Origin: Elusimicrobiota bacterium
GTDB lineage: Bacteria; Elusimicrobiota; Elusimicrobia; UBA1565; UBA9628
Length of the DNA: 64,000 nt
Reading direction: 5' to 3'
NCBI GenBank assembly: GCA_026388095.1
Contig: JAPLKL010000041.1
Coordinates: 36,016 to 100,015 of the forward strand
The translations under genes were made by a program, and so were the position numbers. Shown one piece after another: positions 3,222 through 27,975 of the stretch. The stretch's first letter is position 1; each line of letters opens with the position of its first letter. Under the pieces are notes generated by a model. The model ran no database searches, had not been told where the DNA came from, and was given only the letters and a program-made list of their open reading frames with translations.

Positions 3222-3698
3222 TCAAGGGCCCAGACCCGGCAGGATGAAGGCGATGGGCCGGTCGCGGTTGGGCACGTACTTCGTCACCTCGAAAGTGAAG
3301 CCCGAGCTCTTGTAGAACGGCATGTTGATGGGATGGGTCTTGACCGTGAGGGTCACCACCTGCCAGACCTGGGTGCGGTTGATGTCGACCTGGGCCGCCT
3401 GCCCCAGCAGGTCGAGGAACGAACCGGCCTTGGTGCCGTAGCCCAGGTACTGGCTGACCTTGGTCTGGATGTCCCCCATGAGCTGGTTGTCCGAACTCAC
3501 GTAGGCCGCGTTGCGGTGCGACTCGAGCTGCCAGCGCCGGGCCGCGTAGAAGGACGCGATCTCGATCTTCTGCACGAGGATGAGCAGGGCGTAGATCTTG
3601 GCGAAGGCGAAGAGGAAGAACATGAACAGGGGGAAGAGCAGGACCGTCTCGGTCATGGCCTGCCCGGGCCGGCGCCTGCGCCAAGGGAATCTGATCAT
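3222..3698 (-). CDS. TadE-like minor pilin (pseudopilin) of the Tad/Flp system.
   Basis: The N-terminus MIRFPWRRRRPGQAMTETVLLFPLFMFFLFAF matches the TadE-like N-terminal domain (basic residues, GQ, hydrophobic helix). It overlaps the stop of the upstream gene by 4 nt (ATGA). Confidence 0.75.
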   Translation of the reverse strand: MIRFPWRRRRPGQAMTETVLLFPLFMFFLFAFAKIYALLILVQKIEIASFYAARRWQLESHRNAAYVSSDNQLMGDIQTKVSQYLGYGTKAGSFLDLLGQAAQVDINRTQVWQVVTLTVKTHPINMPFYKSSGFTFEVTKYVPNRDRPIAFILPGLGP

Positions 3699-4927
3699 GG
3701 GTATGTCCGGACCTGGAACTTGGGCGTCGGGTTGGGCCAGACCGAGGCCTTGGTGCCGGTGCCGTAGCCGTCTATGGCCACGGAGACATGGATCGCGGGG
3801 CCCCCGCCGGGGAAGTCGGTCTGGAAGTCGTGGTTGAAGTAGTTCTTGGAGACGATGAAGTTGTCGCCCGCCCCGCCCCAGAACTGGTTGACCGGGACGC
3901 CCCGGCTCCCATACTGGCTCGAGCTCAGCGCCGCGTTGAGCTTGCCGTCATGGGCGGAGCTGCCGTGGTGCACGCCCGTGATGCCGTCGCTGACCGTCAG
4001 GATCTGGAAAAGGCCGTGGCAGCCGTTGATGGGGCTGGCCATCTGGACCGGGCCGCCGTCAGGCGAATAGACCTGCCAGGGCTGGAACGTGGTGCCCGTC
4101 GGCTTGTTCCCGTAGAAATTGACGTACTGGTAGCAATGGTACTGGAGACTGCTGCCCAGACCCCAGCTGCCCATGCCCGCCTCGAAGAGGTTGGAGGCGG
4201 CGGCCGCCCCGTTGACGTCGGAGCCGGTGTTGAGCCAATAGGATTTCCGGAGGAAGTTGTGCGCCGACGCCAGGCGGTTGAGCACCGAATACTGGGCGTC
4301 CTCGACGGAGCCGAGCAGCTGGTAGATCTGGACGTAGAGCTTGTAGATCTGGTTGGCGTCGTCCCAGTTGAGCCAGTAGGCGTTGGCGTCGTCGTCTTTC
4401 TCCAGGCCCGTCAGGATCGTGATGCAGGGCGACTTGCCGGTGGGCGGACAGGACTCCCCGTCGATGTTCGACGGATCGTCGTTCTTGTCGCGGCCGGGCG
4501 GGCCCCCGTACCTGATGTTCCAGGAACCGTCGCTGTTGCTGAACTTGTCGTCATGCCTCGGCACGCAGTCCCCGTTGCGCTGGGGGAACACGCCCCGCCT
4601 GCAGAGGATCGTCCAAAGCCTCTTGTCCTCGGCGCCCTTGCTGTCGCAGCCGCCCTTCATCGAGCAGTCGAGGGTGGTGTCATAGAACCCCTCGTCGAAG
4701 ATGCGCATGGGGAAAGCGCCGTTGACGTAGGCGGTCCGGTTGAGGAAGTCGGAGTAGTTGGTCATCTCCACGAATACGGCCGCGTCGATGGCGAACTGAT
4801 GGCGGATCTTCTCGCGGGAGAGCTTCGCCGTCTCGTAGATGAGATAGACGAAAAGCATGAGGGTGGGGAACAGGAACAGGGCGGGGATGATGACCTGCCC
4901 CAAACGGCCTCTGCGGCGGGATAGCAT
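3695..4927 (-). CDS. Large TadE/TadG-like pseudopilin (410 aa).
   Basis: From the ATG at 4927 the N-terminus MLSRRRGRLGQVIIPALFLFPTLMLFVYLIYE has the TadE-like signature. It is followed by a Cys-containing periplasmic domain. The arginine-rich upstream extension in the track ORF is spurious. Confidence 0.7.
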   Translation of the reverse strand: MLSRRRGRLGQVIIPALFLFPTLMLFVYLIYETAKLSREKIRHQFAIDAAVFVEMTNYSDFLNRTAYVNGAFPMRIFDEGFYDTTLDCSMKGGCDSKGAEDKRLWTILCRRGVFPQRNGDCVPRHDDKFSNSDGSWNIRYGGPPGRDKNDDPSNIDGESCPPTGKSPCITILTGLEKDDDANAYWLNWDDANQIYKLYVQIYQLLGSVEDAQYSVLNRLASAHNFLRKSYWLNTGSDVNGAAAASNLFEAGMGSWGLGSSLQYHCYQYVNFYGNKPTGTTFQPWQVYSPDGGPVQMASPINGCHGLFQILTVSDGITGVHHGSSAHDGKLNAALSSSQYGSRGVPVNQFWGGAGDNFIVSKNYFNHDFQTDFPGGGPAIHVSVAIDGYGTGTKASVWPNPTPKFQVRTYP

Positions 4928-4997
4928 CCCTAGAAGGTTAGCCCGAGGCCCGTGAAAAATCAAGGCCGGGACGGTAAAAAAGCGGTATCGGCGGGAC

Positions 4998-5987
4998 CTA
5001 GACGACCAGGAACTTGGCGGTCTCTTCGGTGTTGAAGCTGACCTGGGACGCCGCGAAGTCGATGGAGGTCGCGATGTGCTGCTGGAGCATCCCGTCCCTG
5101 CACCGGTTGATGCGCAGCTGGAAGGTCGTGGAGTAGAGCTCCCCGCGCACGCTCTCCACCTCGGCCCAAAGGCCCCGGTCGCCCCAGGGCTTGAGGGTCT
5201 CCGCCATGCCGGCCCGGTAGGCGGCGTAGTCCTCATCGTTCATGCGCCCGGTGGTGGCCATGTTGAAGACCAGCAGGCCCACGTCCTCGTCCGGCGGGAT
5301 GTTCTTGGCGATGAAGCGGGGGGCGTGCTCCGCCGGGCAGGCCACCAGCTGGAGGAAGCTGGCGTCCCGGGAGACCAGGTCCAGGACCACGTCTGCGGCC
5401 TGGTCCATCTCCTCGATGGCGCGCATGTTGTCCGGCGGCACGGCCGCGGTCAGCCAGCGCCTGTGGCTGATGTCCGAGAGCAGGAGCGGCTCAGGGTCCA
5501 GCCCGATGCGAGCCGCCACCAGGTCCGAGGCGAAGTTCTTCTCCGGCCGGACCATGTCCGCACAGAGGTCCAGGCCGGCGCCTGCGTTGACCTCAACCAG
5601 GTAGTACGGCAGCTTGCGGAAGCGCTGGAAGAACAGCAGGGCCGGGACCTTCCAGAGCCCGGTCCGCGCCGCCACGTAGGAGCGGCGGTGCCCGAGGCGC
5701 AGGCGGTGGTAGAACGAGTCCGGCGCGGCTGCCAGGAAACGGTCCAAGGCCGGAGCCGGGTCCGCCTCGGGAGTGCCGCCGCAGGAGGGGAAGTAGCGCA
5801 CCAGCGGGCAGTCCTCGTCGCTCAAAGCCTCGTAGTGCACCGCGCTCAGGAAGAGCTGCCAATCCTCGGTCCAGGCCACGAAGTTGCGCTTCTCCCAGGC
5901 CTTGAGGACCTTGGCCAGCCAAGGCGGGTCCCGCTTGACCGCCTCGGCCAGGTGGCGCACCATGGCGCCGGTCACGGGCAGCTTCAT
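4998..5987 (-). CDS. Hypothetical cytoplasmic protein, possibly with a SAM-methyltransferase-like fold or DUF2332-like; this assignment is weak.
   Basis: The protein has ordinary amino-acid composition from MKLPVTGAMVRHLAEAVKRD onward and contains LVEVNAGAGLDL, which resembles a Rossmann-type motif. The N-terminal ~190 aa of the track ORF are Arg/Gly-rich junk. Alternative TTG starts exist upstream as far as ~6040. Confidence 0.5.
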   Translation of the reverse strand: MKLPVTGAMVRHLAEAVKRDPPWLAKVLKAWEKRNFVAWTEDWQLFLSAVHYEALSDEDCPLVRYFPSCGGTPEADPAPALDRFLAAAPDSFYHRLRLGHRRSYVAARTGLWKVPALLFFQRFRKLPYYLVEVNAGAGLDLCADMVRPEKNFASDLVAARIGLDPEPLLLSDISHRRWLTAAVPPDNMRAIEEMDQAADVVLDLVSRDASFLQLVACPAEHAPRFIAKNIPPDEDVGLLVFNMATTGRMNDEDYAAYRAGMAETLKPWGDRGLWAEVESVRGELYSTTFQLRINRCRDGMLQQHIATSIDFAASQVSFNTEETAKFLVV

Positions 5988-6118
5988 CGTGACCAGGGTC
6001 GCGCGCTCCAACTGGGCGAGGAACTGCTCCTTGGTGATCAAACTTCGTCCCCCCGACGGAACGGCCGCCCCCCGCGGGGGGGCGGCCGGACTCGGCGCCT
6101 TCGGCGCCGAGTTCGAGT

Positions 6119-6790
6119 TCAAGTCTCTTGCGGCGAGATGAGCCCCATCTCGATGCCCTTGACCACGGCCTCCGTGCGGTTGGAGACCTCGAGCTTTTGG
6201 AACACGGCGTTCAAGTGGTTCTTGATGGTCTTGACCGAGCAGTCCATCTTGGCCGCGATCTCCTTGTTGGACATGCCCGAGCCCAGCAGCACCAGCACCC
6301 GGATCTCGGTCTTGGTCAGAGCCACCGGCGAGCCCTGCCCCTCGCCCGAGGCCATCTGGCGCAGCCCGGCGAGGAGCTTGCCCATGACCTGCTGGGGGAT
6401 CATCACGCCGTCGTTGGCGAAGGCCTTCAGGGCGTTGACCAGCTCGGAGGCGGGCAGCATCTTGGAGAGATAGCCGTTGGCGCCGGCCTGGATGGCCTCC
6501 ATCACGTGGGCCTCGTCCTCGTAGCTGGAGAGGATGAGGACGTTGGTGTCCGGGCATTCCTTGCGGATCACCCGCGTGGCCGCGATGCCGTCGATCTGGG
6601 GAAGCTTGATGTCCATGAGGATCACGTCGGGCTTGAGCTTCTTGGCCTGGCGGATGACGTCCTGGCCGTCAACGGCCTCGCCGACCACTTCGACGATCTT
6701 CTCGTTCTCCAGCAGGTCCTTGATCCCTTCGCGGAACAGCGTCTGGTCGTCGGCGATCAGCACTCTGACTCTTTTCTTCGGCGTGGGCAT
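6119..6790 (-). CDS. NarL/FixJ-family response regulator (REC domain plus LuxR-type HTH).
   Basis: From MPTPKKRVRVLIADDQ there is a receiver domain (DVILMDIKLP, conserved K) followed by the C-terminal LuxR helix-turn-helix (TKTEIRVLVLLGSGMSNKEIAAKMDCSVKTIKNHL). Confidence 0.85.
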   Translation of the reverse strand: MPTPKKRVRVLIADDQTLFREGIKDLLENEKIVEVVGEAVDGQDVIRQAKKLKPDVILMDIKLPQIDGIAATRVIRKECPDTNVLILSSYEDEAHVMEAIQAGANGYLSKMLPASELVNALKAFANDGVMIPQQVMGKLLAGLRQMASGEGQGSPVALTKTEIRVLVLLGSGMSNKEIAAKMDCSVKTIKNHLNAVFQKLEVSNRTEAVVKGIEMGLISPQET

Positions 6791-6831
6791 TTCTTTCCCC
6801 CTTGGTCGTGTGTGTGAGTATATCAAAAAAT

Positions 6832-7953
6832 TCAACCGCCGGATTTCGGTATGGGGATCGTGAAATAGAATGTGGACCCCTGGCCCAGGCCCGGGCTCTC
6901 GACCCAGATCCTGCCCTTATGGCTGCCGATGATCTCCTTGGCGATGGACAGGCCGAGCCCGAGACGGCCGCCGCCGGCCTGGCTCTTGGCCTGATTGAAG
7001 CTCTCGAAGATCGTGTCGAGGTTCTCCGGCGCGATGCCTTCGCCCGTGTCCCGGATGGCGAACTGCACGCAGTCGCCGGCCTGGCTCACCAGGACCGCCA
7101 CCTCACCGCCCTTCGTGGTATGCCGGATGGCGTTCTCCAGGAGGTTGTTGAGGACTTGCATGACCCGCCGCTTGTCGCCGCAGACCATAGGCAGTCCCGG
7201 CGAGATCTGCGCCTTCAGAGACAGGCCGCGCGCCGCGGCCCGCCCCTGGGGCCCGAGCAACCCCTCCTCCACCATGGCCCCGGGAGCGAAGAAGCTCATC
7301 TCCAGACGGAACTTGCCCTGCTCGATGCAGGCCCAATCCACCAGGTCTTCGATGAGCCGGGCGAGCTGGCCGATGCCGTTGGAGATATAGACCATGCGCT
7401 TCTTCTGGTCCGCGTCGGGAGTGATGGACTGGGTGAGCATCTCGAAGCTCACCTGCAGGGTCATGAGCGAATTGGAGAGGTCGTGGGAGGACATGGAGAG
7501 GAACTTCGACTTCATCGCATTGAGACGGGTCAGCTGGGCGTTGGTCTCCTTGAGGTCGGCCATGAGGCGGCGGTTCTCGACCTCCAGGCGCAGCTTCTCC
7601 ATGGCCTTGACGATGGAGTGCTTGAGCCGGTCGAAGTCCACGGGCTTGGCCATGAAGTCCGTGACCGATTCCTGGATGGCCTTGACCGCGGTGTCGAGGT
7701 TGGCGTGCGCGGTCAGCATCAGGATCTGGCTCTCGGTGTTCACGGTCCGGATGCGCTTGATGACGTCGATGCCGGTGGCGTCGCCGAGGTTGTAGTCCAT
7801 GAGTATGACGTCGAAGAAGCGCTTCTGCACCGCCGCCAGGGCCTCGGCCCCCGAGGCGGCCTGCGCCACCTCGTAGCCCTCGACCTCGAGGTTGTCGTTG
7901 ATGCTCTCGCGCATGTTCGCGTCGTCGTCCACGATCAGGATGGAACCTTTCAT
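6832..7953 (-). CDS. Hybrid response regulator and histidine kinase (N-terminal REC, then HisKA and HATPase_c).
   Basis: The N-terminus MKGSILIVDDD...DVILMDYNLGDATG is a receiver domain. A coiled-coil region and an H-box (FLSMSSHDLSNSL) follow, and then the N, G1 and G2 boxes (LLENAIRHT, RDTGEGI, GLGLSIAKEI). Confidence 0.85.
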   Translation of the reverse strand: MKGSILIVDDDANMRESINDNLEVEGYEVAQAASGAEALAAVQKRFFDVILMDYNLGDATGIDVIKRIRTVNTESQILMLTAHANLDTAVKAIQESVTDFMAKPVDFDRLKHSIVKAMEKLRLEVENRRLMADLKETNAQLTRLNAMKSKFLSMSSHDLSNSLMTLQVSFEMLTQSITPDADQKKRMVYISNGIGQLARLIEDLVDWACIEQGKFRLEMSFFAPGAMVEEGLLGPQGRAAARGLSLKAQISPGLPMVCGDKRRVMQVLNNLLENAIRHTTKGGEVAVLVSQAGDCVQFAIRDTGEGIAPENLDTIFESFNQAKSQAGGGRLGLGLSIAKEIIGSHKGRIWVESPGLGQGSTFYFTIPIPKSGG

Positions 7954-7965
7954 ATCTATGCCGCC

Positions 7966-9906
7966 TTAGGACATGTGTTGGGGGCCCGCCGCGCCTGCGG
8001 GAGCCCCGCTGGGCGGCGGCGTGCCCGGCTGCGCCACCGGGAGGGTGAGCTTGAAGACCGTGCCCTGGCCGACCACGGACTCGACCTCCACGCCCCCGTT
8101 GTGGCGGTCCAGGACCTTGCGCACGACGGCCAAGCCCAGGCCGGTGCCGCGCGCCTTGGTGGTGAAGAAGGGGGCGAAGATCTTGTCCAGCACGTCCGCC
8201 GGTATGCCGGGGCCCGTGTCGCCGATGAGGATCGCGACCGATTTGCCGTCTGCCGCCATGCGCGTGTGCAGGCTGACCGTGCCCTTCTGGGGCATGACCT
8301 CGATGCCGTTGTTCATCAAGTTGCGGATGGCCTGCTGCACCTCGGTGGTGTCGATGTCCACCAGGGGGTTGGCGGGGTCGAACTGCTTGTCCAAAGCGAT
8401 GTGCGGCGGGAAGGGGTAGACGGAGAGGAGCTCCTCGAGCCAGGCGTTGAGGAGGACCCGCTCGGGCTTGAGCTCGCGCGTGCGGGAGTAGGTCAGGATC
8501 TCGTTGATGATGCCGTTGGCCTGCTTGATCTCCGACTCGATGATCCGGATGTGTTTGTCGATCTTGGGGTCGGTCCCCGCCGGCGCGGTCCCGAGCTTGG
8601 TCTTGATGAAGTAGATGGAGTTGTTGATGACCGCCAGCGGGTTGCGGATCTCATGGCCGACGACGGAAGCCATCTGCCCTATCGCGGCCAGCCGCTCCTT
8701 CTTGATGAGCTCATCCTGGGCCGCCTTGAGCTCCCGGGTTCGCGCCTCGACGCGCTTCTCCAGGAACTTGGTGAACTTCTCCAGCTCCTGCTTGGCGTGG
8801 ATGAGTTCCCCCGTCTTCTCCTTCAAGGACTCGCTCATGGCCAGGAAGGTCTGGGCGAGGTCTCCGATCTCGTCGTTGGTGGTCGTCATCTCGGGCAGGT
8901 CCTCGAACTGCCCCCGGCCCAGCCGAGCCGCGGCCTCGCGCAGGAGGCGGATGGGCTGGGTGATGTGGCCGGCCACGGCCAAGGAGAGCAAGATCGTGAA
9001 GAGCACCACCCAGACCAAGACCCGGAAGATCTGGTTCTTCATCTCCGCCGCGGTCTGATAGGCGTATTCCACCGGCTGCTGCACGTAGACGACCCAGTCC
9101 AGGTCGCGCACGTCGGCGTAGGCCCCCAGCAGGCGCCGGCCGTCGCCCAGGGCCATCTCGCCGCCGCCCTTGGGGGCGGTCTGGGTGGTGATGATCTTGA
9201 GGACCTCGTCGCTCATGCGCGCGTCGGGCTTGAAGACCTCCTTGGGGCTCGAATGCGCGATGAGGAAGCCGTCGCGCTTGTCCACCACGGCCGCGGCGGA
9301 TTTCCCCGTGGCCGGGAACTCCATGCCCAGCATCGAGGAAAGGCCGTTGAGGCTGACCCGCGCCATCAGCACCCCCACGGCCTTGGCCGGCTGCGCCTTC
9401 TGATCGATGACGGCCACGGCGATGGTCGCCGTGGGATAGAGCCCCTGGAAGCGCTCGAGCTTGCCGATGTACTGCCCCCGGCGCATGGCCTCCACGAAGA
9501 ACTCCTCGCCCTCGAAGCTGCGCATCTCCGGCGCGGAGCCCAGGAACCGGCCCGTGCGCATCTGCTCCACGCCCAGGGTGCTGCTGACGGAGAGCTCCAG
9601 GACGGCGAGGTGCACCTGCATGATCCGGTTGAGGTACTGCTGCTGCTTGACGGGGTTCATGGAAGCGAACTCGTCGATGCCGGCGGTCTCGGCCAGGACG
9701 TTGCGGAAGGTGGTCACGTATTTGTAGACCGTGTCGGCGAAGCCCACGGCCAGCGACTCCTGCATGGCCAAGGTCTCCTTGCGCAGGGAGGCCTGGGAGA
9801 TGCCGACGAGGTGATAGCCCACCACCCCCATGGGCGCCAGGGAGATGAGCAGGAACCAGAAGAGGATCTTGTAGGCGAGCTTGCCGCGGCGCGCAGGAGG
9901 CGGCAT
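7966..9906 (-). CDS. Membrane sensor histidine kinase (periplasmic sensor domain, HAMP, HisKA, HATPase_c).
   Basis: TM1 is ILFWFLLISLAPMGVVGY. A periplasmic domain of about 250 aa follows, then TM2, a HAMP region, the H-box VVGHEIRNPLAV, and the ATPase motifs (LMNNGIEVM, GDTGPGI, GTGLGLAVV). Confidence 0.85.
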   Translation of the reverse strand: MPPPARRGKLAYKILFWFLLISLAPMGVVGYHLVGISQASLRKETLAMQESLAVGFADTVYKYVTTFRNVLAETAGIDEFASMNPVKQQQYLNRIMQVHLAVLELSVSSTLGVEQMRTGRFLGSAPEMRSFEGEEFFVEAMRRGQYIGKLERFQGLYPTATIAVAVIDQKAQPAKAVGVLMARVSLNGLSSMLGMEFPATGKSAAAVVDKRDGFLIAHSSPKEVFKPDARMSDEVLKIITTQTAPKGGGEMALGDGRRLLGAYADVRDLDWVVYVQQPVEYAYQTAAEMKNQIFRVLVWVVLFTILLSLAVAGHITQPIRLLREAAARLGRGQFEDLPEMTTTNDEIGDLAQTFLAMSESLKEKTGELIHAKQELEKFTKFLEKRVEARTRELKAAQDELIKKERLAAIGQMASVVGHEIRNPLAVINNSIYFIKTKLGTAPAGTDPKIDKHIRIIESEIKQANGIINEILTYSRTRELKPERVLLNAWLEELLSVYPFPPHIALDKQFDPANPLVDIDTTEVQQAIRNLMNNGIEVMPQKGTVSLHTRMAADGKSVAILIGDTGPGIPADVLDKIFAPFFTTKARGTGLGLAVVRKVLDRHNGGVEVESVVGQGTVFKLTLPVAQPGTPPPSGAPAGAAGPQHMS

Positions 9907-10371: not shown

Positions 10372-10372
10372 G

Positions 10373-11615: not shown

Positions 11616-11709
11616 TTCGCTCTCCTGATAGTATCCTGCGTTAGGAAAGATTAACAATACTAATAAGAGAATACAAGCGGATTGCCGTTGGGGTGGCGAG
11701 CCAGCGCCT

Positions 11710-21190: not shown

Positions 21191-21212
21191 ACGTTTCGCT
21201 CTCCTTGCACGA

Positions 21213-21380: not shown

Positions 21381-21442
21381 GTACGTCATTGAGTGTATCA
21401 GCCACGGTTTTCCTTGTCAATAACCTTTCCATTAAAAATACA

Positions 21443-22417: not shown

Positions 22418-25400
22418 CGCACCAGGAATTTCTTCACCGTCTGCAGGATGTTCCTGCTGCCGTCCGTGGCTTCGGCCCGGAATACCGCGTAGTACAACCC
22501 GCGCGCCACCCGGCGGCCGGCGGAGTTGGAGCGGGTCCAGGCGAAGCACGGGACGCCGCCCGCCGTGGAGCCCCCGCTGACGTAGTTATTGGCCTGCTGC
22601 TCCCCGAAGTCCTTGTCCAGGACCAGCTCGCCGCTCATGGTGTAGAGCTTCATCTTGACGTCGGCCTGGAACGGCGAGAAGATGACGATGTTGGCGCTGT
22701 CGCCGTCCACGGGGTTGGGGTAGATGTAGGTGTTTCGCTCGAAATCCCCTTTGGGATCAGCGGACTGGTTGCGCACCACGGCGACCTCGTCGAGCGGCCG
22801 GTCCTCGGCCAGCTCCAGCGGGAAGATCACGTTGCCCGTCATATTGTCGATGGCGCTCATGTCCGTCGAAGCCACGATGCTGAATTTGTAATTCCCGTCG
22901 GGGGTCGCGCCCAGGCGCAGATCGGTGCCGTCCCAGGTCTCGGTGACCTCCGTGCGGCCCGGCCGCACGCCCACGATGCGCTTGACCAATGACACGGCCT
23001 CGGGCGGCGACGGGTTGCCGTTGCCGTCGAAGACGGTCCCTGGGCGGTAGATCTTGACCGACACCTTCATGGTCGCGGAGACCTGGTAGAGGATGCGCGC
23101 CCCCTCCGAGCCGTTGGTCAGCGGCGCGATGGCCACGTCGTAGATGCGCAGCGGGTCGTAGGCGATGGTCATCTGGGCCGTGGAGGGCTGGTTGAGCTGG
23201 GAGGCCACGTCCTGGGCCACGCCGCGCACCAGGTAGAAGCCGGACGGCGGGAAGTTGCCCTTGTCGTCCCGGCCGTCCCAGACGTCCTCCAGCAGCAGGC
23301 CGCCGTCGCGCACTCCCCCCAAGATGACCGAACGCACGACCTGGTTGGGGACGTTGTTGTTGAGGATCTGGATGGTGACCGAGGATTGGCGGGTGAGTGC
23401 GTAGCTGATGGTGAAGGGGTCCAAAGTGATGCTGGAGCTGGAGTTGAACATCTGCGGCACGGTCGGAGTCACGTTGAAGGTGGTGAAGATGATCGCGCCG
23501 CGGCTGACGGTCACGCTCCCGAAGACCCGGTCCGTGGCGTAGTACTGGGGAGTCGTCGTGGACTGCGCGACCAAGGTGAAGACGTAGCTGCCGTCCGGGA
23601 CCAGCAGTCCGTTGGCGTCCCGGCCGTCCCAGTATTCGGTGATGCGCATGCGGCCGGGCCGCATCCCGTGGTAGCTGATGAGGGGCCCGATCTTGCCGCC
23701 TTGGGAGTCCACGGTGTTGTCGCAGACGGTGGTGGACATGCCGCAGGGCGGCCAGGTGGAGGTGCTGTTCTTGATGACCGTGCCCGGGGAGTAGATGTTC
23801 CACACCACGTTCATGGGCTGGGAGAGTTGATAGTTGAGCGAGACCGAATCCGAGGTCCCGGCCATGAGCGGCGTGGTCACCACGTCCGTGATGCGGAACA
23901 GGTCAACCGGGAAAGACGACGACACCGTCGAGACCTTCATGGTGCACAAAGGGTCCGCGGCGGTCAGCTGGACGATGTAAGTGCCCGAAGTGACCCAACG
24001 GCCGGTGTTGTCCACCGCGTCGCCCCATATCTCCTGGTTGGCGAACAAGCCGGGCCGGACCACGTTTTCGGCGAGGGTCCTGACCAAAGTGGTCCCGTCG
24101 GCCTGGAAGATCTTCACGCTCGCGATGGCGTCGCGGCCGAGCTGATACCGGAACACGAAGGGATTGAGGCCGCTGATGGCCGGGCTGGAGCCGATGACGG
24201 TGGGGCTGGCGGCGATCTGGCTGAGGCCCACGTTGCCCCGCACCACCGGCATGAAGCCAGTCTGGGCCTTGGTCGTCCAGATGCGGCGGTCTTGCACGCT
24301 GCTGATGAAGGGGCTCCCGTTCTGCGAGGGCAGGGCGGCGTAGATCACGAAGACGTAGTCGCCGTCCGTGCAGACCGCGTTGCCGTTCATGTCCCGGCCG
24401 TCCCAGAAGGTCAACGCGGAGCCGCGGCCGGCCTTGATCTCCTCGAAATGGCGCACCAGGGGAGCCGGGGACGAGTTCGGGCCGGTGCAGGCGCCTATGT
24501 AGGGTTTGAAGTCCTTGGGTCCGTGCACCCACTCGAACCCGCCGGAGATGACTGGGCCCGCCCGGTCCAGGTTGACCGGGTCATTGACATTGTTGAGGTT
24601 GCCGCAGAACTGGGTGTTAGGAGGATAGATGTCTATATACACCGTCGCCGGCTCGGTGAGGGTGTAGCTCAAAGTCGCCAAAGACGTCGCTGAGCCCGCC
24701 AGAGGCGCGACCCTGAGGTCCGTGATCTGGAGGGGGTCCAAGCTGATCTGCCGCGTGGTCGGGTAGGACAGGTCGCCCCCGTACTGGTCAACGGCGAAGG
24801 CCTGCAAGGTCGCCAGGAACACCCCGGGGGGCAGGAGATCCCCGTTGTCTGCGCGGCCGTTCCAGGCATCGCCGTTGAGCAAGGTCCCGTTGGGCGTGCC
24901 CTCGCCCACGCGCGCCACGCCCGGCAGCACGGAGCGCAGCACCGCGCCGCTGTCCGGGTCGGTGACGGTGATGTACATCGAGGCGTCCTTGGAGAGCCGG
25001 TAAGTGATGTTGTAGGGCTCCACGTAGACCCCGGCGCTGCCCACCACCGTGGGAGAGGAGCGCACCACGTGCACGTTGGTGACGTCCACCTGCACGGGCT
25101 TCTGCAGGACGAAGAGCGCGTTGGCATCCATGGTGGCTCCCGCCGGATAGGCGCGCTGGGCCGTGATGGTGATGTTGCCGCTGGAGCCGGTCTGGTTGGT
25201 CTGGGCCGTGATGCGGAATCCGTACTGTCCGTTGGTCTTGCCCAACTCGCCCTGGATGCTGACTGCGCCGTCCCAGAGCACGCAGTAGGGTTTCACACCG
25301 CTCGTGGTGGAGTTGGTGTAGGGAGCCAGGACCCCGGGGGCGTCCACGAAGAAGGTGCGGATCGGCGGGGTGGAGCCCGCATCCAGGGGGTTGGCCCCGT

Positions 25401-25911
25401 CCTGGAACTTGAAAATCTCGAACTCCACCATGTCCAGGGCCACGGTGTCGGAGCCCGGGTTGTTGTAGCCGATCCCGGCGCAGAGGAAGACGTCGGAGTT
25501 GCAGATGTTGTTGCCGTTGACTGCGTCGCCGGCAGGGGAGTTGGCGGCGTCGCAGTTGGACAGCACCGTGGAGCTGCGCTGGTCGAACTCGATGTGGGGG
25601 TCGTTGGAGATGTTGCCATTCTGCGGCTGCAATCCCGAGACATCAGTGGGCGAAGTCGGGTTGATGTCCCCGCAATAAGTGGTGCCGCCCAGTTGGCAGT
25701 TGGACGAGCCGTCCAGACAGAAGAAGTGCTTCGTGAACGCATTATAATAGCAGTAGAAGCCGCTGTCCTTGACCACGAAGGACTGATCGATGAAGAGCTG
25801 GACCTGGCCCTGAGCGAAGAGGCGGGAGGGCAGGAGGAGGGACAGGAGGGCGGCGCCGTAGAAAGCCTGCGCCGCCCCCATGCCGCTTCGATGTCGGTTC
25901 ATAGAACGCAT
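22414..25911 (-). CDS. Giant secreted protein (~1165 aa) with six FlgD-Ig-like repeats and a T9SS-type (Por_Secre_tail-like) C-terminal sorting domain.
   Basis: The signal peptide is MRSMNRHRSGMGAAQAFYGAALLSLLLPSRLFAQG, followed by a Cys-rich N-terminal region. Six repeats carry the W(D/N)GRDxxGxxxPxGxYxF motif (TFWDGRDMNGNAVCTDGDYVFVIY, EYWDGRDANGLLVPDGSYVFTLVA, DVWDGRDDKGNFPPSGFYLVRGVA, ETWDGTDLRLGATPDGNYKFSIVA and others). The C-terminal ~90 aa (YIYPNPVDGDSANIVIF...VKMKLYTMSGELV...RGLYYAVFRAE...KKFLVR) match the T9SS sorting-domain consensus. The ATG at 25911 is chosen; a GTG lies at 25914. Confidence 0.8.
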   Translation of the reverse strand: MRSMNRHRSGMGAAQAFYGAALLSLLLPSRLFAQGQVQLFIDQSFVVKDSGFYCYYNAFTKHFFCLDGSSNCQLGGTTYCGDINPTSPTDVSGLQPQNGNISNDPHIEFDQRSSTVLSNCDAANSPAGDAVNGNNICNSDVFLCAGIGYNNPGSDTVALDMVEFEIFKFQDGANPLDAGSTPPIRTFFVDAPGVLAPYTNSTTSGVKPYCVLWDGAVSIQGELGKTNGQYGFRITAQTNQTGSSGNITITAQRAYPAGATMDANALFVLQKPVQVDVTNVHVVRSSPTVVGSAGVYVEPYNITYRLSKDASMYITVTDPDSGAVLRSVLPGVARVGEGTPNGTLLNGDAWNGRADNGDLLPPGVFLATLQAFAVDQYGGDLSYPTTRQISLDPLQITDLRVAPLAGSATSLATLSYTLTEPATVYIDIYPPNTQFCGNLNNVNDPVNLDRAGPVISGGFEWVHGPKDFKPYIGACTGPNSSPAPLVRHFEEIKAGRGSALTFWDGRDMNGNAVCTDGDYVFVIYAALPSQNGSPFISSVQDRRIWTTKAQTGFMPVVRGNVGLSQIAASPTVIGSSPAISGLNPFVFRYQLGRDAIASVKIFQADGTTLVRTLAENVVRPGLFANQEIWGDAVDNTGRWVTSGTYIVQLTAADPLCTMKVSTVSSSFPVDLFRITDVVTTPLMAGTSDSVSLNYQLSQPMNVVWNIYSPGTVIKNSTSTWPPCGMSTTVCDNTVDSQGGKIGPLISYHGMRPGRMRITEYWDGRDANGLLVPDGSYVFTLVAQSTTTPQYYATDRVFGSVTVSRGAIIFTTFNVTPTVPQMFNSSSSITLDPFTISYALTRQSSVTIQILNNNVPNQVVRSVILGGVRDGGLLLEDVWDGRDDKGNFPPSGFYLVRGVAQDVASQLNQPSTAQMTIAYDPLRIYDVAIAPLTNGSEGARILYQVSATMKVSVKIYRPGTVFDGNGNPSPPEAVSLVKRIVGVRPGRTEVTETWDGTDLRLGATPDGNYKFSIVASTDMSAIDNMTGNVIFPLELAEDRPLDEVAVVRNQSADPKGDFERNTYIYPNPVDGDSANIVIFSPFQADVKMKLYTMSGELVLDKDFGEQQANNYVSGGSTAGGVPCFAWTRSNSAGRRVARGLYYAVFRAEATDGSRNILQTVKKFLVR

Positions 25912-25965
25912 CACCCTAGCAGTGCCAAAATAGCCTAAATCTGTTTCCGGAGTATTACCGGCATG

Positions 25966-27975
25966 TTAAAAAATTGTGAAGAGGCGCCAGCCGACTCGGT
26001 AGCGCGCCAGCGCGAAGCCCTGCCGCCGCGCCGACGGCCCCGCGAGCACCAGGATATCCTCGGTCTTCGACCCGGCCCCTGCCCCGTCAGCCTGGGCCGC
26101 CGTCAAGCCGACGACGTTCTCATCCAACGCGACGGCCCAGGCCGGCGCGAAGGCTTCGTTGGCGAGGTCGAACGCCATGAGCCGCCGGCTGCGGGAATCC
26201 CAGAGCCAGAGGCGGCCCCCCAGCCACTGCATGGCGGCGGGCAGGACGTCGGCTTCCAGCGGATAGGCCTTGGCGTCGGTCTCCTCGGCTCCGTGCCGGT
26301 AGAGGCGCTTGTTGAAGGCGTCGTAGGACCACAGGGCCTGGCCGTCCCAGGCGAGCGCCGTGGGCGCGGGCCCGGGCGCCGGCTTGGCGTAGAGCACGGT
26401 CCCGGGGTCATCCGGCTGGTGGCGGACGATGCGGGCCTGGGCGGCGTCCAAGGTGTAGAACCGCTCTCCGCCCAAGGCCAGGGCCACGGGTCGGTAGGCG
26501 CCGATGCCTGAGACGCTCGCGCTGCTCACGGGCGCCCGGAGGTCCGCAGGGTCGAAAGCCTCCAGGGTCCCCTTCCAATCCGACACCCACAGGCGCTTCC
26601 CGTCGGACGCCAGCGCGGTCGGGTGGTCCAGAGCCAGGCCGCGGGTGGTCAGCGGCTTGAGGCTCCATGCGCTCAGCCAGCGTCCCAGAGGCCACGCCGC
26701 GGCCAGGAGCAGGCCCGCCGCGACCGCCGCCGGCCCGAGCCAGCGCCGCCGCGGCGCGGCGGCGCGCAAGGGCGCGCCGTCCCCGGAGGGCTGGCGTTCT
26801 CCGTTCCCGGAGGGGGCCGGGAGCTTGCGCTCCAGCTCGGCGACGCGTTCCATCACCGCGGCCAGCTTCTGGGAAGCGGCCGAAGCCTCGGGCAGGCTGC
26901 GCGCAAGCTGCTCCGCGGGCTTGACCGGGGCTTGGTCTTTGGCCGAAACCTCGGCGCGCGAGGCCTCGCGCTCCTTGCGCAGGCCCTCTTCCCAGGCCGA
27001 CCGTTCCTGGCGCAGGCTCTCATCCCGGGCGGCGAGCTCGAGGCGCCGGGCCTCCCAGGCCTCGCGCTCCTTGCGCAGGTTCTCCTCCCACGCGGCGAGC
27101 TCGAGGCGCCGGGCCTCCCAGGCCTCGCGCTCCTTGCGCAGGTTCTCCTCCCAGGAGGAGAGCTCGAGGCGCCGGGTCTCCCGGGCCGAGCGCTCCTGGT
27201 CCCAGAGCTCGCGCCACTGCCCGCGCTCCTTCTCCCAGACGCGGGAGAGATCCTCGCAGCGCCCTTCCACCTCCGCGATCCTCTTGACCGCCTGGGATTG
27301 CTCGCCTTCGGACTCCTGATGCGCGTGCCGCTCGCGCAGGAGCTCGGCCAGCGTCTTCTCCAGGGCCGCTTGGGTCTGCTCGAGGCCCGTCGAGAGGCGC
27401 GCCGCCGCGTCCTCGGCCCGCTGGGAATCCTCCTGGCGGCGGGCGGCCGCAGCCTGGAGCTCCTGCAGGTCCAGCAGATACTGCTGCTCTTTCTTCTCCC
27501 AGCGCCGCTGCTCCTCTCGCCAGCGGGCGCCTTCGGCTCCGGCCGATTCGCGCGCGGCGTCGACCAGGGCCTTGAGGTCCCGGCGCTCGGCCTCGTGCGC
27601 GGCGCGCTCGTCGGCGAGGGCCTTCTGCGCGGCCTCCAAGCGGGAGCCCACGTCGAGGACCTCGGCGACCACGAGCTCGTCGTCGGCGCGCACCTTCTGG
27701 CGCAGGGAACCCAGCTCGGTCTCCAGCAAGGCTTGGCGTTCCTTCAGGGCGCGCAGCGCCTTTTCCCGGGCCTCCAGGAGCTCGTGCCAGCGGGCTTCCT
27801 GGCGGCGGTACTGGCTCTTGAGCATGGCCACCGTCTCCCAGGCCACTTCGTTGGCCGTGGCCACGGATGCGGCAGGCGTCGGCGCGGGGTCGGCCGGGGC
27901 GGCGGAGGCCGCGCCGACCTTCTCCCAGAGCCGGCTGATCTCCTTGTGCAGGTCGTCCGGAGAGGCTTTTTCCAC
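25966..27975 (-). CDS. Bitopic membrane protein with a long cytoplasmic coiled coil (tandem 21-aa repeats) and a periplasmic beta-propeller-like C-terminal domain.
   Basis: The start is a GTG (MEKASPDDLHK...). The first ~400 aa are charged coiled coil with the repeated unit RRLELAAWEENLRKEREAWEA. A single TM (LGPAAVAAGLLLAAAWPLGRWL) follows. The C-terminal ~200 aa have W-rich repeat motifs (LWVSDW, LWSYDAFNKRLYRH, RLWLWDSRSRRLMAFDL). Confidence 0.65.
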   Translation of the reverse strand: MEKASPDDLHKEISRLWEKVGAASAAPADPAPTPAASVATANEVAWETVAMLKSQYRRQEARWHELLEAREKALRALKERQALLETELGSLRQKVRADDELVVAEVLDVGSRLEAAQKALADERAAHEAERRDLKALVDAARESAGAEGARWREEQRRWEKKEQQYLLDLQELQAAAARRQEDSQRAEDAAARLSTGLEQTQAALEKTLAELLRERHAHQESEGEQSQAVKRIAEVEGRCEDLSRVWEKERGQWRELWDQERSARETRRLELSSWEENLRKEREAWEARRLELAAWEENLRKEREAWEARRLELAARDESLRQERSAWEEGLRKEREASRAEVSAKDQAPVKPAEQLARSLPEASAASQKLAAVMERVAELERKLPAPSGNGERQPSGDGAPLRAAAPRRRWLGPAAVAAGLLLAAAWPLGRWLSAWSLKPLTTRGLALDHPTALASDGKRLWVSDWKGTLEAFDPADLRAPVSSASVSGIGAYRPVALALGGERFYTLDAAQARIVRHQPDDPGTVLYAKPAPGPAPTALAWDGQALWSYDAFNKRLYRHGAEETDAKAYPLEADVLPAAMQWLGGRLWLWDSRSRRLMAFDLANEAFAPAWAVALDENVVGLTAAQADGAGAGSKTEDILVLAGPSARRQGFALARYRVGWRLFTIF
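27034..27222. repeat. In-frame 63-bp tandem repeat array inside the coiled-coil gene: two perfect copies at 27034-27096 and 27097-27159, with degenerate flanking copies.
   Basis: The unit GAGCTCGAGGCGCCGGGCCTCCCAGGCCTCGCGCTCCTTGCGCAGGTTCTCCTCCCACGCGGC repeats exactly twice. Diverged copies lie at about 26971-27033 and 27160-27222. The array encodes the 21-aa unit of the coiled coil. Confidence 0.85.

What the first reader, a model, noticed from the sequence alone, without database searches (positions are those of the whole stretch)
3222..27975. Composite Tad/Flp pilus locus with an embedded multi-component signalling module, all in one co-directional gene array
Twenty-odd genes on one strand are separated by gaps of 0-100 bp, and many start/stop codons overlap by 4 nt. 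The array combines a full Tad apparatus with a sensor kinase, a hybrid REC-kinase, three response regulators (LuxR-type, CheY-like and Asp-less OmpR-like) and a HAMP membrane protein. The Tad parts are two Flp pilins, three TadE-like pseudopilins, a larger TadG-like pseudopilin, CpaB, a CpaC secretin, a TadZ-TadA fusion, TadB, TadC and a TadD-like TPR protein. The signalling genes sit between the tadD-like gene and the distal pseudopilin genes. This placement suggests a dedicated phosphorelay that controls or is coupled to pilus assembly, rather than a chance neighbour. No prepilin peptidase (TadV/CpaA) is encoded anywhere in the window.
Basis: partly seen in the sequence, partly recalled or inferred. 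Interest (0 to 1): 0.75.

Follow-up and report, generated by a model that had tools for sequence, protein, structure and literature searches.

The report
Elusimicrobial Tad pilus locus with sensors
This is a real Tad/Flp pilus gene cluster from an uncultured Elusimicrobiota bacterium; its seven signalling genes are inherited together with the pilus genes across the whole clade, making it an elaborate variant of the Tad-plus-two-component arrangement already known in Pseudomonas.

Summary
Window 3222-25914 (minus strand) encodes a Tad/Flp system: two Flp pilins, TadE, CpaB, a short secretin, a MinD/FleN-like–CpaF fusion, TadB, TadC and a TPR protein. Signalling genes follow: a kinase-less WalK-like sensor, a 4-TM protein, an Asp-less OmpR-type regulator, a CheY-like receiver, a dCache-HAMP kinase, a REC-kinase and a NarL-type regulator. 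DUF2332, a TadG-like pilin and a second TadE-like gene come last.

Corrections:
- There are three pseudopilins, not four.
- The 669-aa gene at 25966-27975 is not conserved.
- A FlgD-Ig/T9SS-tail protein and a PorV/PorQ-like porin upstream do belong to the conserved block.

Gene order is kept in 14 of 16 informative species genomes found through TadC. It is also kept in all 36 metagenome loci of at least 6 kb found through the OmpR-like gene, so the signalling genes are not a chance neighbour. However, the array is not one operon. Two conserved promoters (before flp1 and before the 4-TM gene) and terminators after the NarL-type gene define a separate signalling operon. No Hpt domain was found, so a strict phosphorelay is not shown. 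No prepilin peptidase lies in the window or in 1.1 Mb of related loci.

P. aeruginosa PprAB is a direct precedent. I rate this a new variant of a known kind, of moderate interest.

The parts
22414..25914 (-). 1166-aa secreted protein with FlgD-Ig-like repeats and a T9SS type-A C-terminal sorting domain. It is the first gene of the conserved block.
   Evidence: Pfam FlgD_ig 9.5e-21. TIGR04183 Por_Secre_tail scores 28.4 bits against a cutoff of 23. Present upstream of PorVQ and flp in every locus that reaches this far.
21443..22417 (-). PorV/PorQ-family outer-membrane beta-barrel (324 aa). Its start overlaps the previous gene's stop by 4 nt.
   Evidence: NF033709 PorV_fam scores 94.7 bits against a cutoff of 90; PorQ 3e-16. 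Conserved position.
21392..21420 (-). P_flp1: a near-consensus sigma-70 promoter, TTGACA-N17-TACACT with an extended -10 TG.
   Evidence: Present in 15 of 15 related loci that contain this junction. The strict pattern matches 12 of 14 flp1 upstream regions and none upstream of eight other genes.
21213..21389 (-). flp1, an Flp-type prepilin. The likely true start is the ATG at 21380, because the ATG at 21389 lies only 2 nt after the -10 element.
   Evidence: The motif G|QAAVEY followed by a hydrophobic helix is conserved in orthologues. No Pfam hit.
20984..21190 (-). flp2, an Flp-type prepilin (68 aa).
   Evidence: The motif RGQNTVEY is near-invariant in orthologues. Flp1_like 1.3e-4 and Class_IIIsignal 5e-5, both below the gathering score.
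20448..20915 (-). tadE1 pseudopilin (155 aa).
   Evidence: Pfam TadE 3e-11.
19689..20444 (-). CpaB/RcpC periplasmic ring protein.
   Evidence: Pfam RcpC 7.8e-17. TIGR03177 scores 98.7 bits against a cutoff of 71.
18891..19643 (-). Short secretin (250 aa). It has a signal peptide and a secretin domain only, with no N0/N1 domains.
   Evidence: Pfam Secretin 8.3e-40 over residues 88-250. It matches only the C-terminal parts of the PilQ and GspD models.
16587..18878 (-). Fusion of a MinD/FleN/TadZ-class P-loop domain (residues 16-227), a low-complexity linker, and a CpaF/TadA ATPase (residues 357-734).
   Evidence: T2SSE 3.6e-63 and CbiA 2.9e-9. CpaF structure 8rjf at 8e-113 and FleN 5j1j at 2e-6. 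TadZ structure 3fkq, ATPase domain only, at E=0.022. The 120 best homologues are nearly all 729-882 aa (three shorter) and almost all source names say Elusimicrobia.
15079..16590 (-). TadB platform protein with a roughly 220-aa N-terminal periplasmic extension (503 aa).
   Evidence: T2SSF 9e-18 at residues 338-461.
14171..15082 (-). TadC platform protein (303 aa).
   Evidence: T2SSF 1.7e-17.
12819..14171 (-). 450-aa TPR protein in the TadD position. It has a signal peptide without a lipobox cysteine.
   Evidence: The reading frame was established by GC3 analysis. TPR_2 1.3e-21.
11710..12822 (-). Kinase-less sensor (370 aa): TM, periplasmic PAS/Cache-like domain, TM, HAMP, cytoplasmic PAS. It is the last gene of the flp1 transcription unit and overlaps the TPR gene by 4 nt.
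   Evidence: No Pfam or NCBIfam hit. The 120 best of 264 homologues are nearly all 358-393 aa (one 560-aa outlier), and every source name given says Elusimicrobia. AF2 pLDDT 82. Best PDB fold match is the sensing half of WalK, 9a5d_A, at 2.4e-14.
11648..11676 (-). P_memb: the second conserved promoter, TTGTAT-N17-TAATCT with an extended -10 TG, ahead of the signalling operon.
   Evidence: It is one of only two matches to the pattern on the minus strand of window 1-28100. The pattern matches 42 of 54 related upstream regions, and most of the rest are close variants.
11181..11615 (-). 144-aa protein read as four transmembrane segments from its hydrophobic sequence. First gene of the signalling unit.
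   Evidence: Translation. No family hit. Conserved position.
10373..11173 (-). OmpR/PhoB-type winged-helix regulator with a pseudo-receiver. The acidic pocket, phospho-Asp, Thr and Lys are all missing, and there is a variable insertion.
   Evidence: Trans_reg_C 6e-24 and Response_reg 9e-8, partial. Residue mapping. The same substitutions occur in 18 orthologues.
9994..10371 (-). Stand-alone receiver (125 aa) with the complete DD/D/T/K set, 1 nt after the OmpR-like gene.
   Evidence: Response_reg 8.8e-27. Residue alignment. Its best NCBIfam hits are receivers of OmpR/PhoB-family regulators. It is 76-98% identical across the clade.
7966..9906 (-). Membrane sensor histidine kinase: dCache_1, HAMP, HisKA, HATPase_c (646 aa).
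   Evidence: The H-box HEIRNPL is seen in the translation.
6832..7953 (-). Soluble REC-HisKA-HATPase_c kinase (373 aa).
   Evidence: The receiver residues are intact.
6119..6790 (-). NarL/LuxR-type response regulator (REC plus GerE).
   Evidence: Response_reg 9e-30 and GerE 9.5e-18. NarL and MadR models at about 1e-41. GC-rich hairpins follow in the window, and canonical terminators follow in other clades.
4998..6041 (-). DUF2332 protein (347 aa), present only in the near and middle clades.
   Evidence: PF10094 5.9e-23. No PDB relative, even with a profile. Absent in L023, L026 and the far clade.
3695..4927 (-). TadG-like large minor pilin (410 aa).
3222..3698 (-). tadE2 pseudopilin (158 aa), overlapping the TadG-like gene by 4 nt.
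   Evidence: Pfam TadE 0.006, below threshold. Motif PGQAMTETVLLFP. It always follows the TadG-like gene.
1461..3167 (-). FtsH-like AAA+/M41 protease paralogue (568 aa). It travels with the TadG-like and tadE2 genes.
   Evidence: AAA 1.7e-35 and Peptidase_M41 4.7e-35. It is adjacent to TadG-like and TadE2 in L022, L024, L027, L028 and many metagenome loci.

Best explanation
This is a clade-specific Tad (type IVc) pilus locus of high-GC Elusimicrobiota, with its own co-inherited two-component network. It is organised as several transcription units.

**Unit 1: surface pair (inferred).** The FlgD-Ig protein with a T9SS-type tail and the PorV/PorQ-like barrel probably form a surface-protein-and-anchor pair.

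**Unit 2: pilus machine (components shown, roles inferred).** The strong conserved promoter P_flp1 drives flp1, flp2, tadE1, cpaB, the secretin, the TadZ-like–CpaF fusion, tadB, tadC, the TPR gene and the kinase-less sensor.
- The Flp prepilins are cut at G|Q by an unlinked A24 peptidase.
- They are polymerised on the TadB/TadC platform by the CpaF domain.
- The fused MinD/FleN-class domain takes the place of a separate TadZ.
- The fibre leaves through a CpaB ring and a short secretin.

**Unit 3: signalling operon (genes shown, wiring inferred).** P_memb drives the 4-TM protein, the pseudo-receiver OmpR-type regulator, the CheY-like receiver, the dCache-HAMP kinase, the REC-kinase and the NarL-type regulator.
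- The dCache kinase senses an extracytoplasmic cue.
- The WalK-like sensor, which is made together with the machine, reports envelope or pilus status.
- Signals are integrated at the REC-kinase.
- Phosphate goes to the NarL-type regulator, which activates tad promoters as PprB does in P. aeruginosa.
- Phosphate also goes to the stand-alone receiver, which may pair with the Asp-less OmpR-type protein as a split response regulator.

**Unit 4: minor pilins.** A TadG-like, TadE2 and FtsH-like module supplies the minor pilins.
For: - **Tad components** are identified by profiles and solved-structure homologues. The Flp cleavage motif is conserved.
- **Synteny from two independent entry points.** From TadC, 21 species genomes were found and 14 of the 16 informative ones are collinear. 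From the OmpR-like gene, all 36 metagenome loci of at least 6 kb are collinear.
- **Gene tables with Pfam annotation** for relatives show the same order.
- **The flanks differ** between relatives.
- **Conservation.** The signalling proteins are the most conserved in the block.
- **Promoters.** The promoter pattern occurs only twice on the minus strand of 28 kb, and both sites are intergenic. Both sites are conserved in relatives and absent upstream of eight other genes.
- **Terminators** follow the NarL-type gene in nine loci.
- **Pseudo-receiver.** The substitutions are conserved in 18 orthologues.
- **Stand-alone receiver.** It sits 1 nt downstream of the OmpR-like gene and resembles OmpR/PhoB-family receivers most closely.
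- **Kinase-less sensor.** Its fold matches the sensing half of WalK.
- **Precedents.** pprA and pprB lie interleaved with tadF, fppA and tadG, and PprB (NarL/LuxR family) activates all the tad units (PMC3510237). A flanking OmpR-type two-component system activates flp/tad in Pectobacterium (PMC3767616). Prepilin peptidases can be encoded apart from the locus and are promiscuous (PMC6668835; PMC8460266).
Against: - There are no expression, binding or phosphotransfer data, and the organism is uncultured.
- No regulator binding site was identified. The AT-rich direct repeat TTTTAAYG-N3-TTTTAAYG at about -39 to -60 of P_flp1 occurs only in the nearer clade, overlaps the PorVQ stop codon, and could simply be an UP element.
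- The signalling genes have their own promoter and terminator, so they could serve a wider regulon.
- The junction between the HAMP-like gene and the 4-TM gene tolerates insertions of up to 8.4 kb.
- No prepilin peptidase was found in the window or in 1.11 Mb of related loci, so pilin maturation rests on an unseen gene.
- Both Flp genes score below Pfam gathering thresholds.
Confidence: 0.7

Rival explanations
1. The signalling operon is a general regulator set that is merely parked next to the tad genes. It has its own promoter and terminator and controls other targets, such as envelope or metabolic genes. The linkage would then reflect clade-wide synteny inertia rather than function.
For: - The operon has an independent conserved promoter, P_memb, and terminators after the NarL-type gene.
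- Insertions of 0.3-8.4 kb are tolerated between the HAMP-like gene and the 4-TM gene.
- PprB itself also controls genes outside the tad locus.
Against: - Linkage persists down to about 50% OmpR-like identity and about 55% TadC identity, while the genes outside the block differ between relatives.
- In the near and far clades the operon is bracketed by pilin genes on both sides.
- One sensor gene lies inside the structural operon and overlaps its neighbour by 4 nt.
Confidence: 0.15
2. The machine is not primarily an adhesive pilus. It would be a Tad-derived contact-dependent or secretion device, like the Myxococcus Kil system. It might export or present the adjacent FlgD-Ig protein with its T9SS-type tail, with the sensors triggering assembly on contact.
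For: - The secretin is short and lacks N0, and the ATPase has an extra N-terminal domain. Both are features noted for Kil (PMC8460266).
- The giant tailed protein and the PorV/PorQ-like barrel are always directly upstream.
- No T9SS core genes occur in the window.
- The sensory input is unusually rich.
Against: - There are two canonical Flp pilins behind a very strong promoter, plus CpaB, TadB, TadC and TadE. That is the standard pilus set.
- The ATPase fusion partner is MinD/FleN-like, not FHA.
- No toxin or effector genes were recognised.
- Whether the genome has a T9SS elsewhere could not be checked.
Confidence: 0.1
3. The stand-alone receiver and the pseudo-receiver protein act mainly after translation on the motor. 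For example, they could bind the MinD/FleN-like domain of the ATPase fusion to switch or localise assembly, as CheY-type proteins do for other type IV filament machines. In that case they would not act at promoters.
For: - The stand-alone receiver is the most conserved protein in the locus.
- The ATPase carries a fused MinD/FleN-class domain, a domain class that serves as an interaction hub in TadZ (PMC6668835).
Against: - The receiver resembles receivers of OmpR/PhoB transcription factors, not CheY.
- It is translationally coupled to a winged-helix DNA-binding protein.
- No interaction data exist.
Confidence: 0.05

Closest known systems
Pseudomonas aeruginosa flp-rcp-tad locus with PprA/PprB
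   Same: A Tad/Flp locus in several transcription units, with the sensor kinase and a NarL/LuxR-family response regulator encoded inside it, next to the tadD, tadG and tadF genes. The regulator activates the pilus genes (PMC3510237).
   Different: - Here there are seven signalling genes rather than two: two kinases, a kinase-less sensor, a 4-TM protein and three receiver proteins, one of them a pseudo-receiver.
- The prepilin peptidase (FppA in Pseudomonas) is not in the locus.
- TadZ is fused to TadA, and the secretin is much shorter.
- No regulatory experiment exists for this locus.
Canonical tad/cpa loci (Aggregatibacter flp-tadV-rcpCAB-tadZABCDEFG; Caulobacter cpaA-F)
   Same: Flp pilins with the G/XXXXEY motif, TadE-type pseudopilins, CpaB/RcpC, a secretin, a CpaF/TadA ATPase, the TadB and TadC pair, and a TPR protein in the TadD position.
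   Different: - No tadV/cpaA and no rcpB.
- TadZ exists only as a MinD/FleN-like domain fused to TadA, without the atypical receiver domain.
- TadB has a long periplasmic N-terminal extension.
- The TPR protein has no lipobox.
- The locus includes embedded signalling genes and an upstream pair with a T9SS-type tail.
Pectobacterium flp/tad with a flanking OmpR-type two-component system
   Same: A two-component system next to the tad genes, with an OmpR-family regulator shown to raise flp/tad transcription (PMC3767616).
   Different: That regulator has a normal receiver and a single partner kinase. Here the OmpR-type protein is Asp-less and is paired with a separate receiver.
Myxococcus xanthus Kil (Tad-like) system
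   Same: A short secretin without N0, and an ATPase with an extra N-terminal domain (PMC8460266).
   Different: The Kil ATPase carries an FHA domain, not a MinD/FleN domain. Kil is split over two clusters and includes a prepilin peptidase. No predation-related genes were recognised here.
WalK-type sensor kinases
   Same: The 370-aa sensor has the same domain order as the sensing half of WalK: TM, extracytoplasmic PAS/Cache, TM, HAMP, cytoplasmic PAS (Foldseek E=2.4e-14).
   Different: It ends after the PAS domain and has no DHp or catalytic domain. The family was found only in Elusimicrobia.

Membership tests
Tad/Flp (type IVc) pilus system | CpaF/TadA-family secretion ATPase | tested here: met
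   T2SSE 3.6e-63. CpaF structures 8rjf and 9e24 at about 1e-112 over residues 357-734. TIGR03819 at 323 bits, below its equivalog cutoff of 373.
Tad/Flp (type IVc) pilus system | Two single-domain platform proteins, TadB and TadC | tested here: met
   Two adjacent genes, each with one T2SSF domain, at 9e-18 and 1.7e-17.
Tad/Flp (type IVc) pilus system | Flp-type prepilin with a G/XXXXEY processing motif | tested here: met
   GQAAVEY and GQNTVEY, each followed by a hydrophobic helix and conserved in orthologues. The Pfam Flp1_like and Class_IIIsignal scores are below the gathering cutoffs.
Tad/Flp (type IVc) pilus system | TadZ/CpaE localisation ATPase | tested here: inconclusive
   There is no separate gene. 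A MinD/FleN-class P-loop domain is fused to TadA (FleN 6.6e-7; TadZ 3fkq ATPase domain E=0.022). The atypical receiver domain of TadZ is absent.
Tad/Flp (type IVc) pilus system | CpaB/RcpC and a secretin (in diderms) | tested here: met
   TIGR03177 at 98.7 bits against a cutoff of 71. Secretin 8.3e-40. The secretin is only 250 aa.
Tad/Flp (type IVc) pilus system | Dedicated A24 prepilin peptidase (TadV/CpaA) | tested here: not met
   No Peptidase_A24 hit in 47 window ORFs. No GxGDxK motif in the window or in 1.11 Mb of 108 related loci. Published models allow the gene to lie elsewhere in the genome. The rest of the genome could not be searched.
Tad/Flp (type IVc) pilus system | TadE/TadF/TadG pseudopilins | tested here: met
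   tadE1 matches Pfam TadE at 3e-11. tadE2 is weak at 0.006. The TadG-like protein has no profile hit but has the N-terminal motif and a pilin-like helix.
Tad/Flp (type IVc) pilus system | TadD: an outer-membrane TPR lipoprotein | tested here: inconclusive
   A TPR protein sits in the right position, but its signal peptide has no lipobox cysteine.
Two-component signal transduction | Histidine kinase with an H-box and a catalytic domain; receiver with the acidic pocket, Asp, Thr/Ser and Lys | tested here: met
   Two kinases have HisKA and HATPase_c. Three receivers have the full residue set. The fourth receiver is a conserved pseudo-receiver.
Multi-step phosphorelay (His-Asp-His-Asp) | An Hpt domain or an equivalent second histidine carrier | tested here: not met
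   No Hpt family appears among the Pfam or NCBIfam hits of any protein in the locus. The REC-kinase has its receiver at the N-terminus, which is the layout of a receiver-regulated kinase.
PprAB-type Tad-linked regulation | A regulator encoded in the locus binds and activates flp/tad promoters | not testable with these tools
   Only the gene arrangement and the NarL/LuxR family membership were tested, and both are met.
Type IX secretion cargo and PorV/PorQ | Type-A C-terminal sorting domain on the cargo, a PorV/PorQ-family barrel, and a T9SS translocon (SprA, PorKLMN) | tested here: inconclusive
   The sorting domain and the barrel both pass NCBIfam cutoffs. No translocon genes occur in the window.
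Myxococcus Kil system | FHA domain on the ATPase and FHA partner proteins | tested here: not met
   The N-terminal domain is MinD/FleN-like, and there are no FHA hits.

The most novel reading that the evidence does not exclude
The locus would be a self-contained sensory pilus organelle rather than a pilus with a transcriptional switch. Three elements make up this reading:
- The kinase-less WalK-like sensor, which is made inside the structural operon, and the soluble REC-kinase would form a split kinase that reads pilus or envelope load.
- The phosphorylated stand-alone receiver would complete the Asp-less OmpR-type protein as a two-polypeptide response regulator, or would act on the MinD/FleN-like domain of the ATPase fusion.
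- The FtsH-like protease that always accompanies the TadG-like and TadE2 pilins would take part in pilin processing or turnover, in a lineage whose Tad loci never carry a prepilin peptidase.
Probability: 0.12. Interest if true: 0.8.

Novelty: new variant of a known kind. Interest (0 to 1): 0.45.

Why it matters
Tad pili drive adhesion, surface sensing and, in some bacteria, contact killing. How they are regulated is known for only a few Proteobacteria.

This locus shows a whole clade of an uncultured phylum keeping a seven-gene sensory set physically tied to its Tad machine. That set includes a kinase-less sensor and an apparently split response regulator, and it is conserved more strongly than the machine itself. 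The locus also has a TadZ–TadA fusion, a minimal secretin and no linked peptidase.

It yields concrete, testable parts: two promoters, three receivers and two kinases. These could be used for heterologous work on how type IV filament machines are coupled to signalling. The locus is also a marker for Tad-bearing Elusimicrobiota in metagenomes.

It does not overturn current understanding, because embedded two-component control of Tad loci is already established.

Tried and rejected
- **Exact-sequence look-up** of the window's ATPase fusion found nothing on record. The source MAG was instead recognised through a 100%-identical TadG-like protein, NTY77_09475.
- **Single-operon hypothesis.** I adopted it after finding only P_flp1 with a strict TTGAC pattern. 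I dropped it when a relaxed pattern and comparison of the gap between the HAMP-like gene and the 4-TM gene exposed P_memb and terminators after the NarL-type gene.
- **Apparent loss of the module.** L006 and L017 seemed to lack the signalling module after the HAMP-like gene. I now read them as probable insertions, because L068, L040, L053, L095 and L076 carry 3.8-8.5 kb inserts at the same junction with the module intact beyond it.
- **The 419-aa gene after the NarL-type gene in L023** is not TadG-like.
- **The 669-aa coiled-coil/TM protein at 25966-27975** has no significant family hit and is not conserved upstream.
- **Rfam** found no RNA family in the window at gathering thresholds, so no riboswitch such as c-di-GMP.
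- **The simple terminator scan** found nothing convincing in minus-strand intergenic regions of the window.
- **TadG-like protein:** no PDB sequence match or fold match. The AFDB library was unavailable.
- **DUF2332:** no PDB relative, even with a nine-sequence profile, and no paper mentions it. Its motif VEVNAGAGL resembles a Rossmann-type SAM-binding loop, but that is only my reading of the sequence.
- **Literature:** I found no description of this locus or of T9SS in Elusimicrobia.
- **Regulator binding site at P_flp1:** none could be established.

Full report
**Source and gene calling**

The window has 62-74% GC. In the region of the finding all real genes lie on the minus strand. Third-codon-position GC singles out one frame per gene and shows that the many plus-strand ORFs are antisense shadows. 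One gene had to be re-framed. The segment 12819-14171 encodes a 450-aa TPR protein in a frame that the raw ORF list merges with another ORF.

The 120 best homologues of the ATPase fusion are 63-92% identical. Almost every name given by a source says Elusimicrobia or Elusimicrobiota; one entry is labelled Proteobacteria. A 100%-identical TadG-like protein is NTY77_09475 of an Elusimicrobia MAG.

**Checking the observation**

Profile searches confirm the Tad core:
- TadE (3e-11).
- CpaB/RcpC (7.8e-17, and TIGR03177 above its cutoff).
- Secretin (8e-40).
- CpaF/TadA (T2SSE 3.6e-63; solved CpaF structures at 1e-112).
- Two single-domain T2SSF proteins.
- A TPR protein.

The two Flp genes fall below Pfam thresholds. 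They carry G|QAAVEY and G|QNTVEY followed by a hydrophobic helix, and the motif is conserved in all orthologues.

The ATPase is indeed a fusion. Residues 16-227 are a MinD/FleN-class P-loop domain (FleN 6.6e-7). The ATPase domain of the TadZ structure 3fkq matches at E=0.022, and the atypical receiver domain of TadZ is missing.

- a dCache-HAMP-HisKA-HATPase kinase;
- a REC-HisKA-HATPase kinase;
- a REC-GerE regulator;
- a stand-alone receiver;
- an OmpR-type protein.

The OmpR-type receiver has lost the acidic pair, the phospho-Asp (now Gly), the Thr and the Lys. The same losses occur in 18 orthologues.

The 'HAMP membrane protein' has no family hit. A confident AF2 model (pLDDT 82) shows TM, periplasmic PAS/Cache, TM, HAMP and cytoplasmic PAS, with no kinase core. 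Its best structural match is the sensing half of WalK at E=2.4e-14.

Gaps between genes run from -4 to 94 nt, with five 4-nt overlaps.

No A24 prepilin peptidase is present. There is no Pfam hit in 47 window ORFs, and no GxGDxK motif in any frame of the window or of 1.11 Mb of related loci.

- Only three proteins have the pseudopilin N-terminus (tadE1, tadE2 and the TadG-like protein), not four.

**Is the signalling module a chance neighbour?**

Two independent scans say no.

From the TadC side I found 21 species-level Elusimicrobia genomes with 59-93% TadC identity. A tblastn map shows one gene order: FlgD-Ig, PorVQ, flp1, flp2, tadE1, cpaB, secretin, tadZA, tadB, tadC, TPR, HAMP-like, 4-TM, OmpR-like, CheY, HK, REC-HK, LuxR, then DUF2332 and TadG-like. 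This order holds in 14 of the 16 loci that extend far enough.

From the OmpR-like side I found 80 metagenome loci with 49-95% identity. All 36 loci of at least 6 kb show the same neighbours in the same order.

Gene tables with precomputed Pfam hits agree.

The genes outside the block differ between relatives. The 669-aa coiled-coil gene at 25966-27975 is replaced by a 316-aa gene, a 108-aa gene or a TPR gene. The distal end also varies.

The signalling proteins are the most conserved in the block. CheY is 76-98% identical and the NarL-type regulator 73-97%, against 58-94% for the ATPase fusion.

The two apparent exceptions, L006 and L017, break right after the HAMP-like gene. That junction is an insertion hot spot, with gaps from 85 nt to 8.4 kb and the module intact beyond the insert in L068, L040, L053, L095 and L076.

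**Transcription architecture**

A near-consensus promoter sits directly before flp1, at window 21420-21392: TTGACA-N17-TACACT with an extended -10 TG. It is present in all 15 related loci that contain the junction. It leaves flp1 with little or no leader.

A second promoter sits before the 4-TM gene, at 11676-11648: TTGTAT-N17-TAATCT with TG. The pattern TTGNNN-N14-16-TGnTAnnnT occurs only twice on the minus strand of the first 28 kb, and both sites are intergenic.

Across relatives the pattern matches:
- 12 of 14 flp1 upstream regions;
- 42 of 54 upstream regions of the 4-TM gene, with most of the rest being close variants;
- none of the 13-74 regions upstream of each of eight other genes.

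Canonical intrinsic terminators follow the NarL-type gene in nine loci of other clades. The window has two GC-rich hairpins there with a weak T tract.

The array is therefore several units:
- FlgD-Ig and PorVQ;
- flp1 through the kinase-less sensor;
- the 4-TM gene through the NarL-type regulator;
- DUF2332 and the TadG-like module.

The kinase-less sensor belongs to the structural unit, not to the signalling unit.

**The distal module**

The TadG-like gene, tadE2 and an FtsH-like AAA+/M41 protease with an intact HEAGH motif travel together. Gly/Ala/Ser-rich membrane proteins follow them.
- They follow the NarL-type gene (with or without DUF2332) in the window, L022, L028 and many metagenome loci.
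- In the farthest clade an extra flp-like gene precedes them.
- In L027 the module lies elsewhere in the genome.
- In L023 the tad core ends at the NarL-type gene.

The TadG-like model (pLDDT 84, pTM 0.81) has a long pilin-like N-terminal helix and a globular domain with no solved relative.

**Most likely mechanism**

- **Shown:** the component identities, their conserved linkage, the conserved promoters and terminators, and the pseudo-receiver state.
- **Inferred:**
  - The Flp pilins are matured by an unlinked peptidase. Published Tad models allow the gene to lie elsewhere, and such peptidases are promiscuous.
  - The fibre is assembled by TadB/TadC and the CpaF domain.
  - The fused MinD/FleN-like domain stands in for TadZ.
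  - The dCache kinase and the WalK-like sensor feed a network whose NarL-type output activates tad promoters as PprB does.
  - The stand-alone receiver starts 1 nt after the Asp-less OmpR-type gene and most resembles OmpR/PhoB-family receivers. It may complete that protein as a split regulator.
- **Not found:** no Hpt domain was found, so 'phosphorelay' in the strict sense is not supported.

**Comparison with known systems and novelty**

In P. aeruginosa, pprA and pprB lie among tadF, fppA, tadG and tadD. PprB is a NarL/LuxR-family regulator that activates all the tad transcription units. Pectobacterium has a flanking OmpR-type system that activates flp/tad. The Myxococcus Kil system shares the short secretin and an N-terminally extended ATPase, but that extension is an FHA domain.

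I found no paper describing this Elusimicrobial locus.

I rate the locus a new variant of a known kind. The principle is known. The following features are not described:
- the size and composition of the sensory set;
- the kinase-less sensor;
- the conserved pseudo-receiver paired with a stand-alone receiver;
- the TadZ–TadA fusion;
- the absent peptidase;
- the attached pair with a T9SS-type tail.

Interest is moderate, at 0.45.

Noticed in passing
window 21443-25914 (-): A 1166-aa FlgD-Ig-repeat protein with a T9SS type-A sorting tail sits with a PorV/PorQ-family barrel, overlapping it by 4 nt. The pair lies directly upstream of flp1 in every relative that reaches this far. No T9SS translocon gene occurs in the window. 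The pair recalls PorZ anchored on PorQ. How the protein crosses the outer membrane in this phylum is unexplained.
   Followed up: partly
window 1461-3167 (-); L022, L024, L027, L028: An FtsH-like AAA+/M41 protease paralogue (HEAGH intact, 568 aa) always follows the TadG-like and TadE2 pilin genes. This holds even where that module has moved away from the tad core (L027). No reason for the linkage is known. None of the 108 related loci carries an A24 peptidase motif.
   Followed up: partly
window 248-1342 (-) and beyond the window start; L024 4782-6545, L027 11625-15992, L028 9857-15430: A series of Gly/Ala/Ser-rich low-complexity membrane proteins follows the FtsH-like gene. They have no family hits and are weakly similar to each other across relatives. 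The first has its own TTGACA-N17-TAAACT promoter at 1375-1347.
   Followed up: partly
window 11616-11709 (-); L068, L040, L053, L095, L076, L061, L016: The short gap between the kinase-less sensor gene and P_memb is a recurrent insertion site. It holds 1.2-8.5 kb of unrelated genes in several relatives. In L017 and L063 the adjacent DNA carries opposite-strand kinase-like or receiver-like genes.
   Followed up: partly
window 21421-21445 (-): An AT-rich direct repeat, TTTTAATG-TAT-TTTTAATG, with an 11-nt period lies just upstream of the -35 of P_flp1. In L011 both copies read TTTTAACG. The first copy overlaps the PorVQ stop codon. It could be an UP element or an OmpR-type tandem site. It is absent in the more distant clade.
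   Followed up: partly
window 25966-27975 (-): A 669-aa protein with a long Arg/Glu-rich coiled coil containing a near-repeat (WEENLRKEREAWEARRLEL twice), one TM segment and a C-terminal periplasmic domain. Local GC is 73.5% against about 65% in the tad block. It has no significant family hit and is not conserved at this position in relatives.
   Followed up: partly
window 4998-6041 (-): A DUF2332 protein is inserted between the NarL-type regulator and the TadG-like gene, in the near and middle clades only. It contains an invariant VEVNAGAGL stretch that resembles a Rossmann-type nucleotide or SAM-binding loop. It has no solved relative and no literature.
   Followed up: partly
window 3000-26000 versus 26000-64000: The tad block has a lower GC content (0.62-0.67) than the rest of the window (mostly 0.67-0.74).
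   Followed up: no
window 15079-16590 (-): TadB is 503 aa. It has a signal-peptide-like N-terminus and a roughly 220-aa extra domain with no family hit ahead of the T2SSF domain. This length is kept in relatives (496-511 aa).
   Followed up: no
window 28070-31564 and 56315-58120: The neighbours include a TMEM260-like O-mannosyltransferase and a PMT_2 glycosyltransferase. These could glycosylate surface proteins.
   Followed up: no
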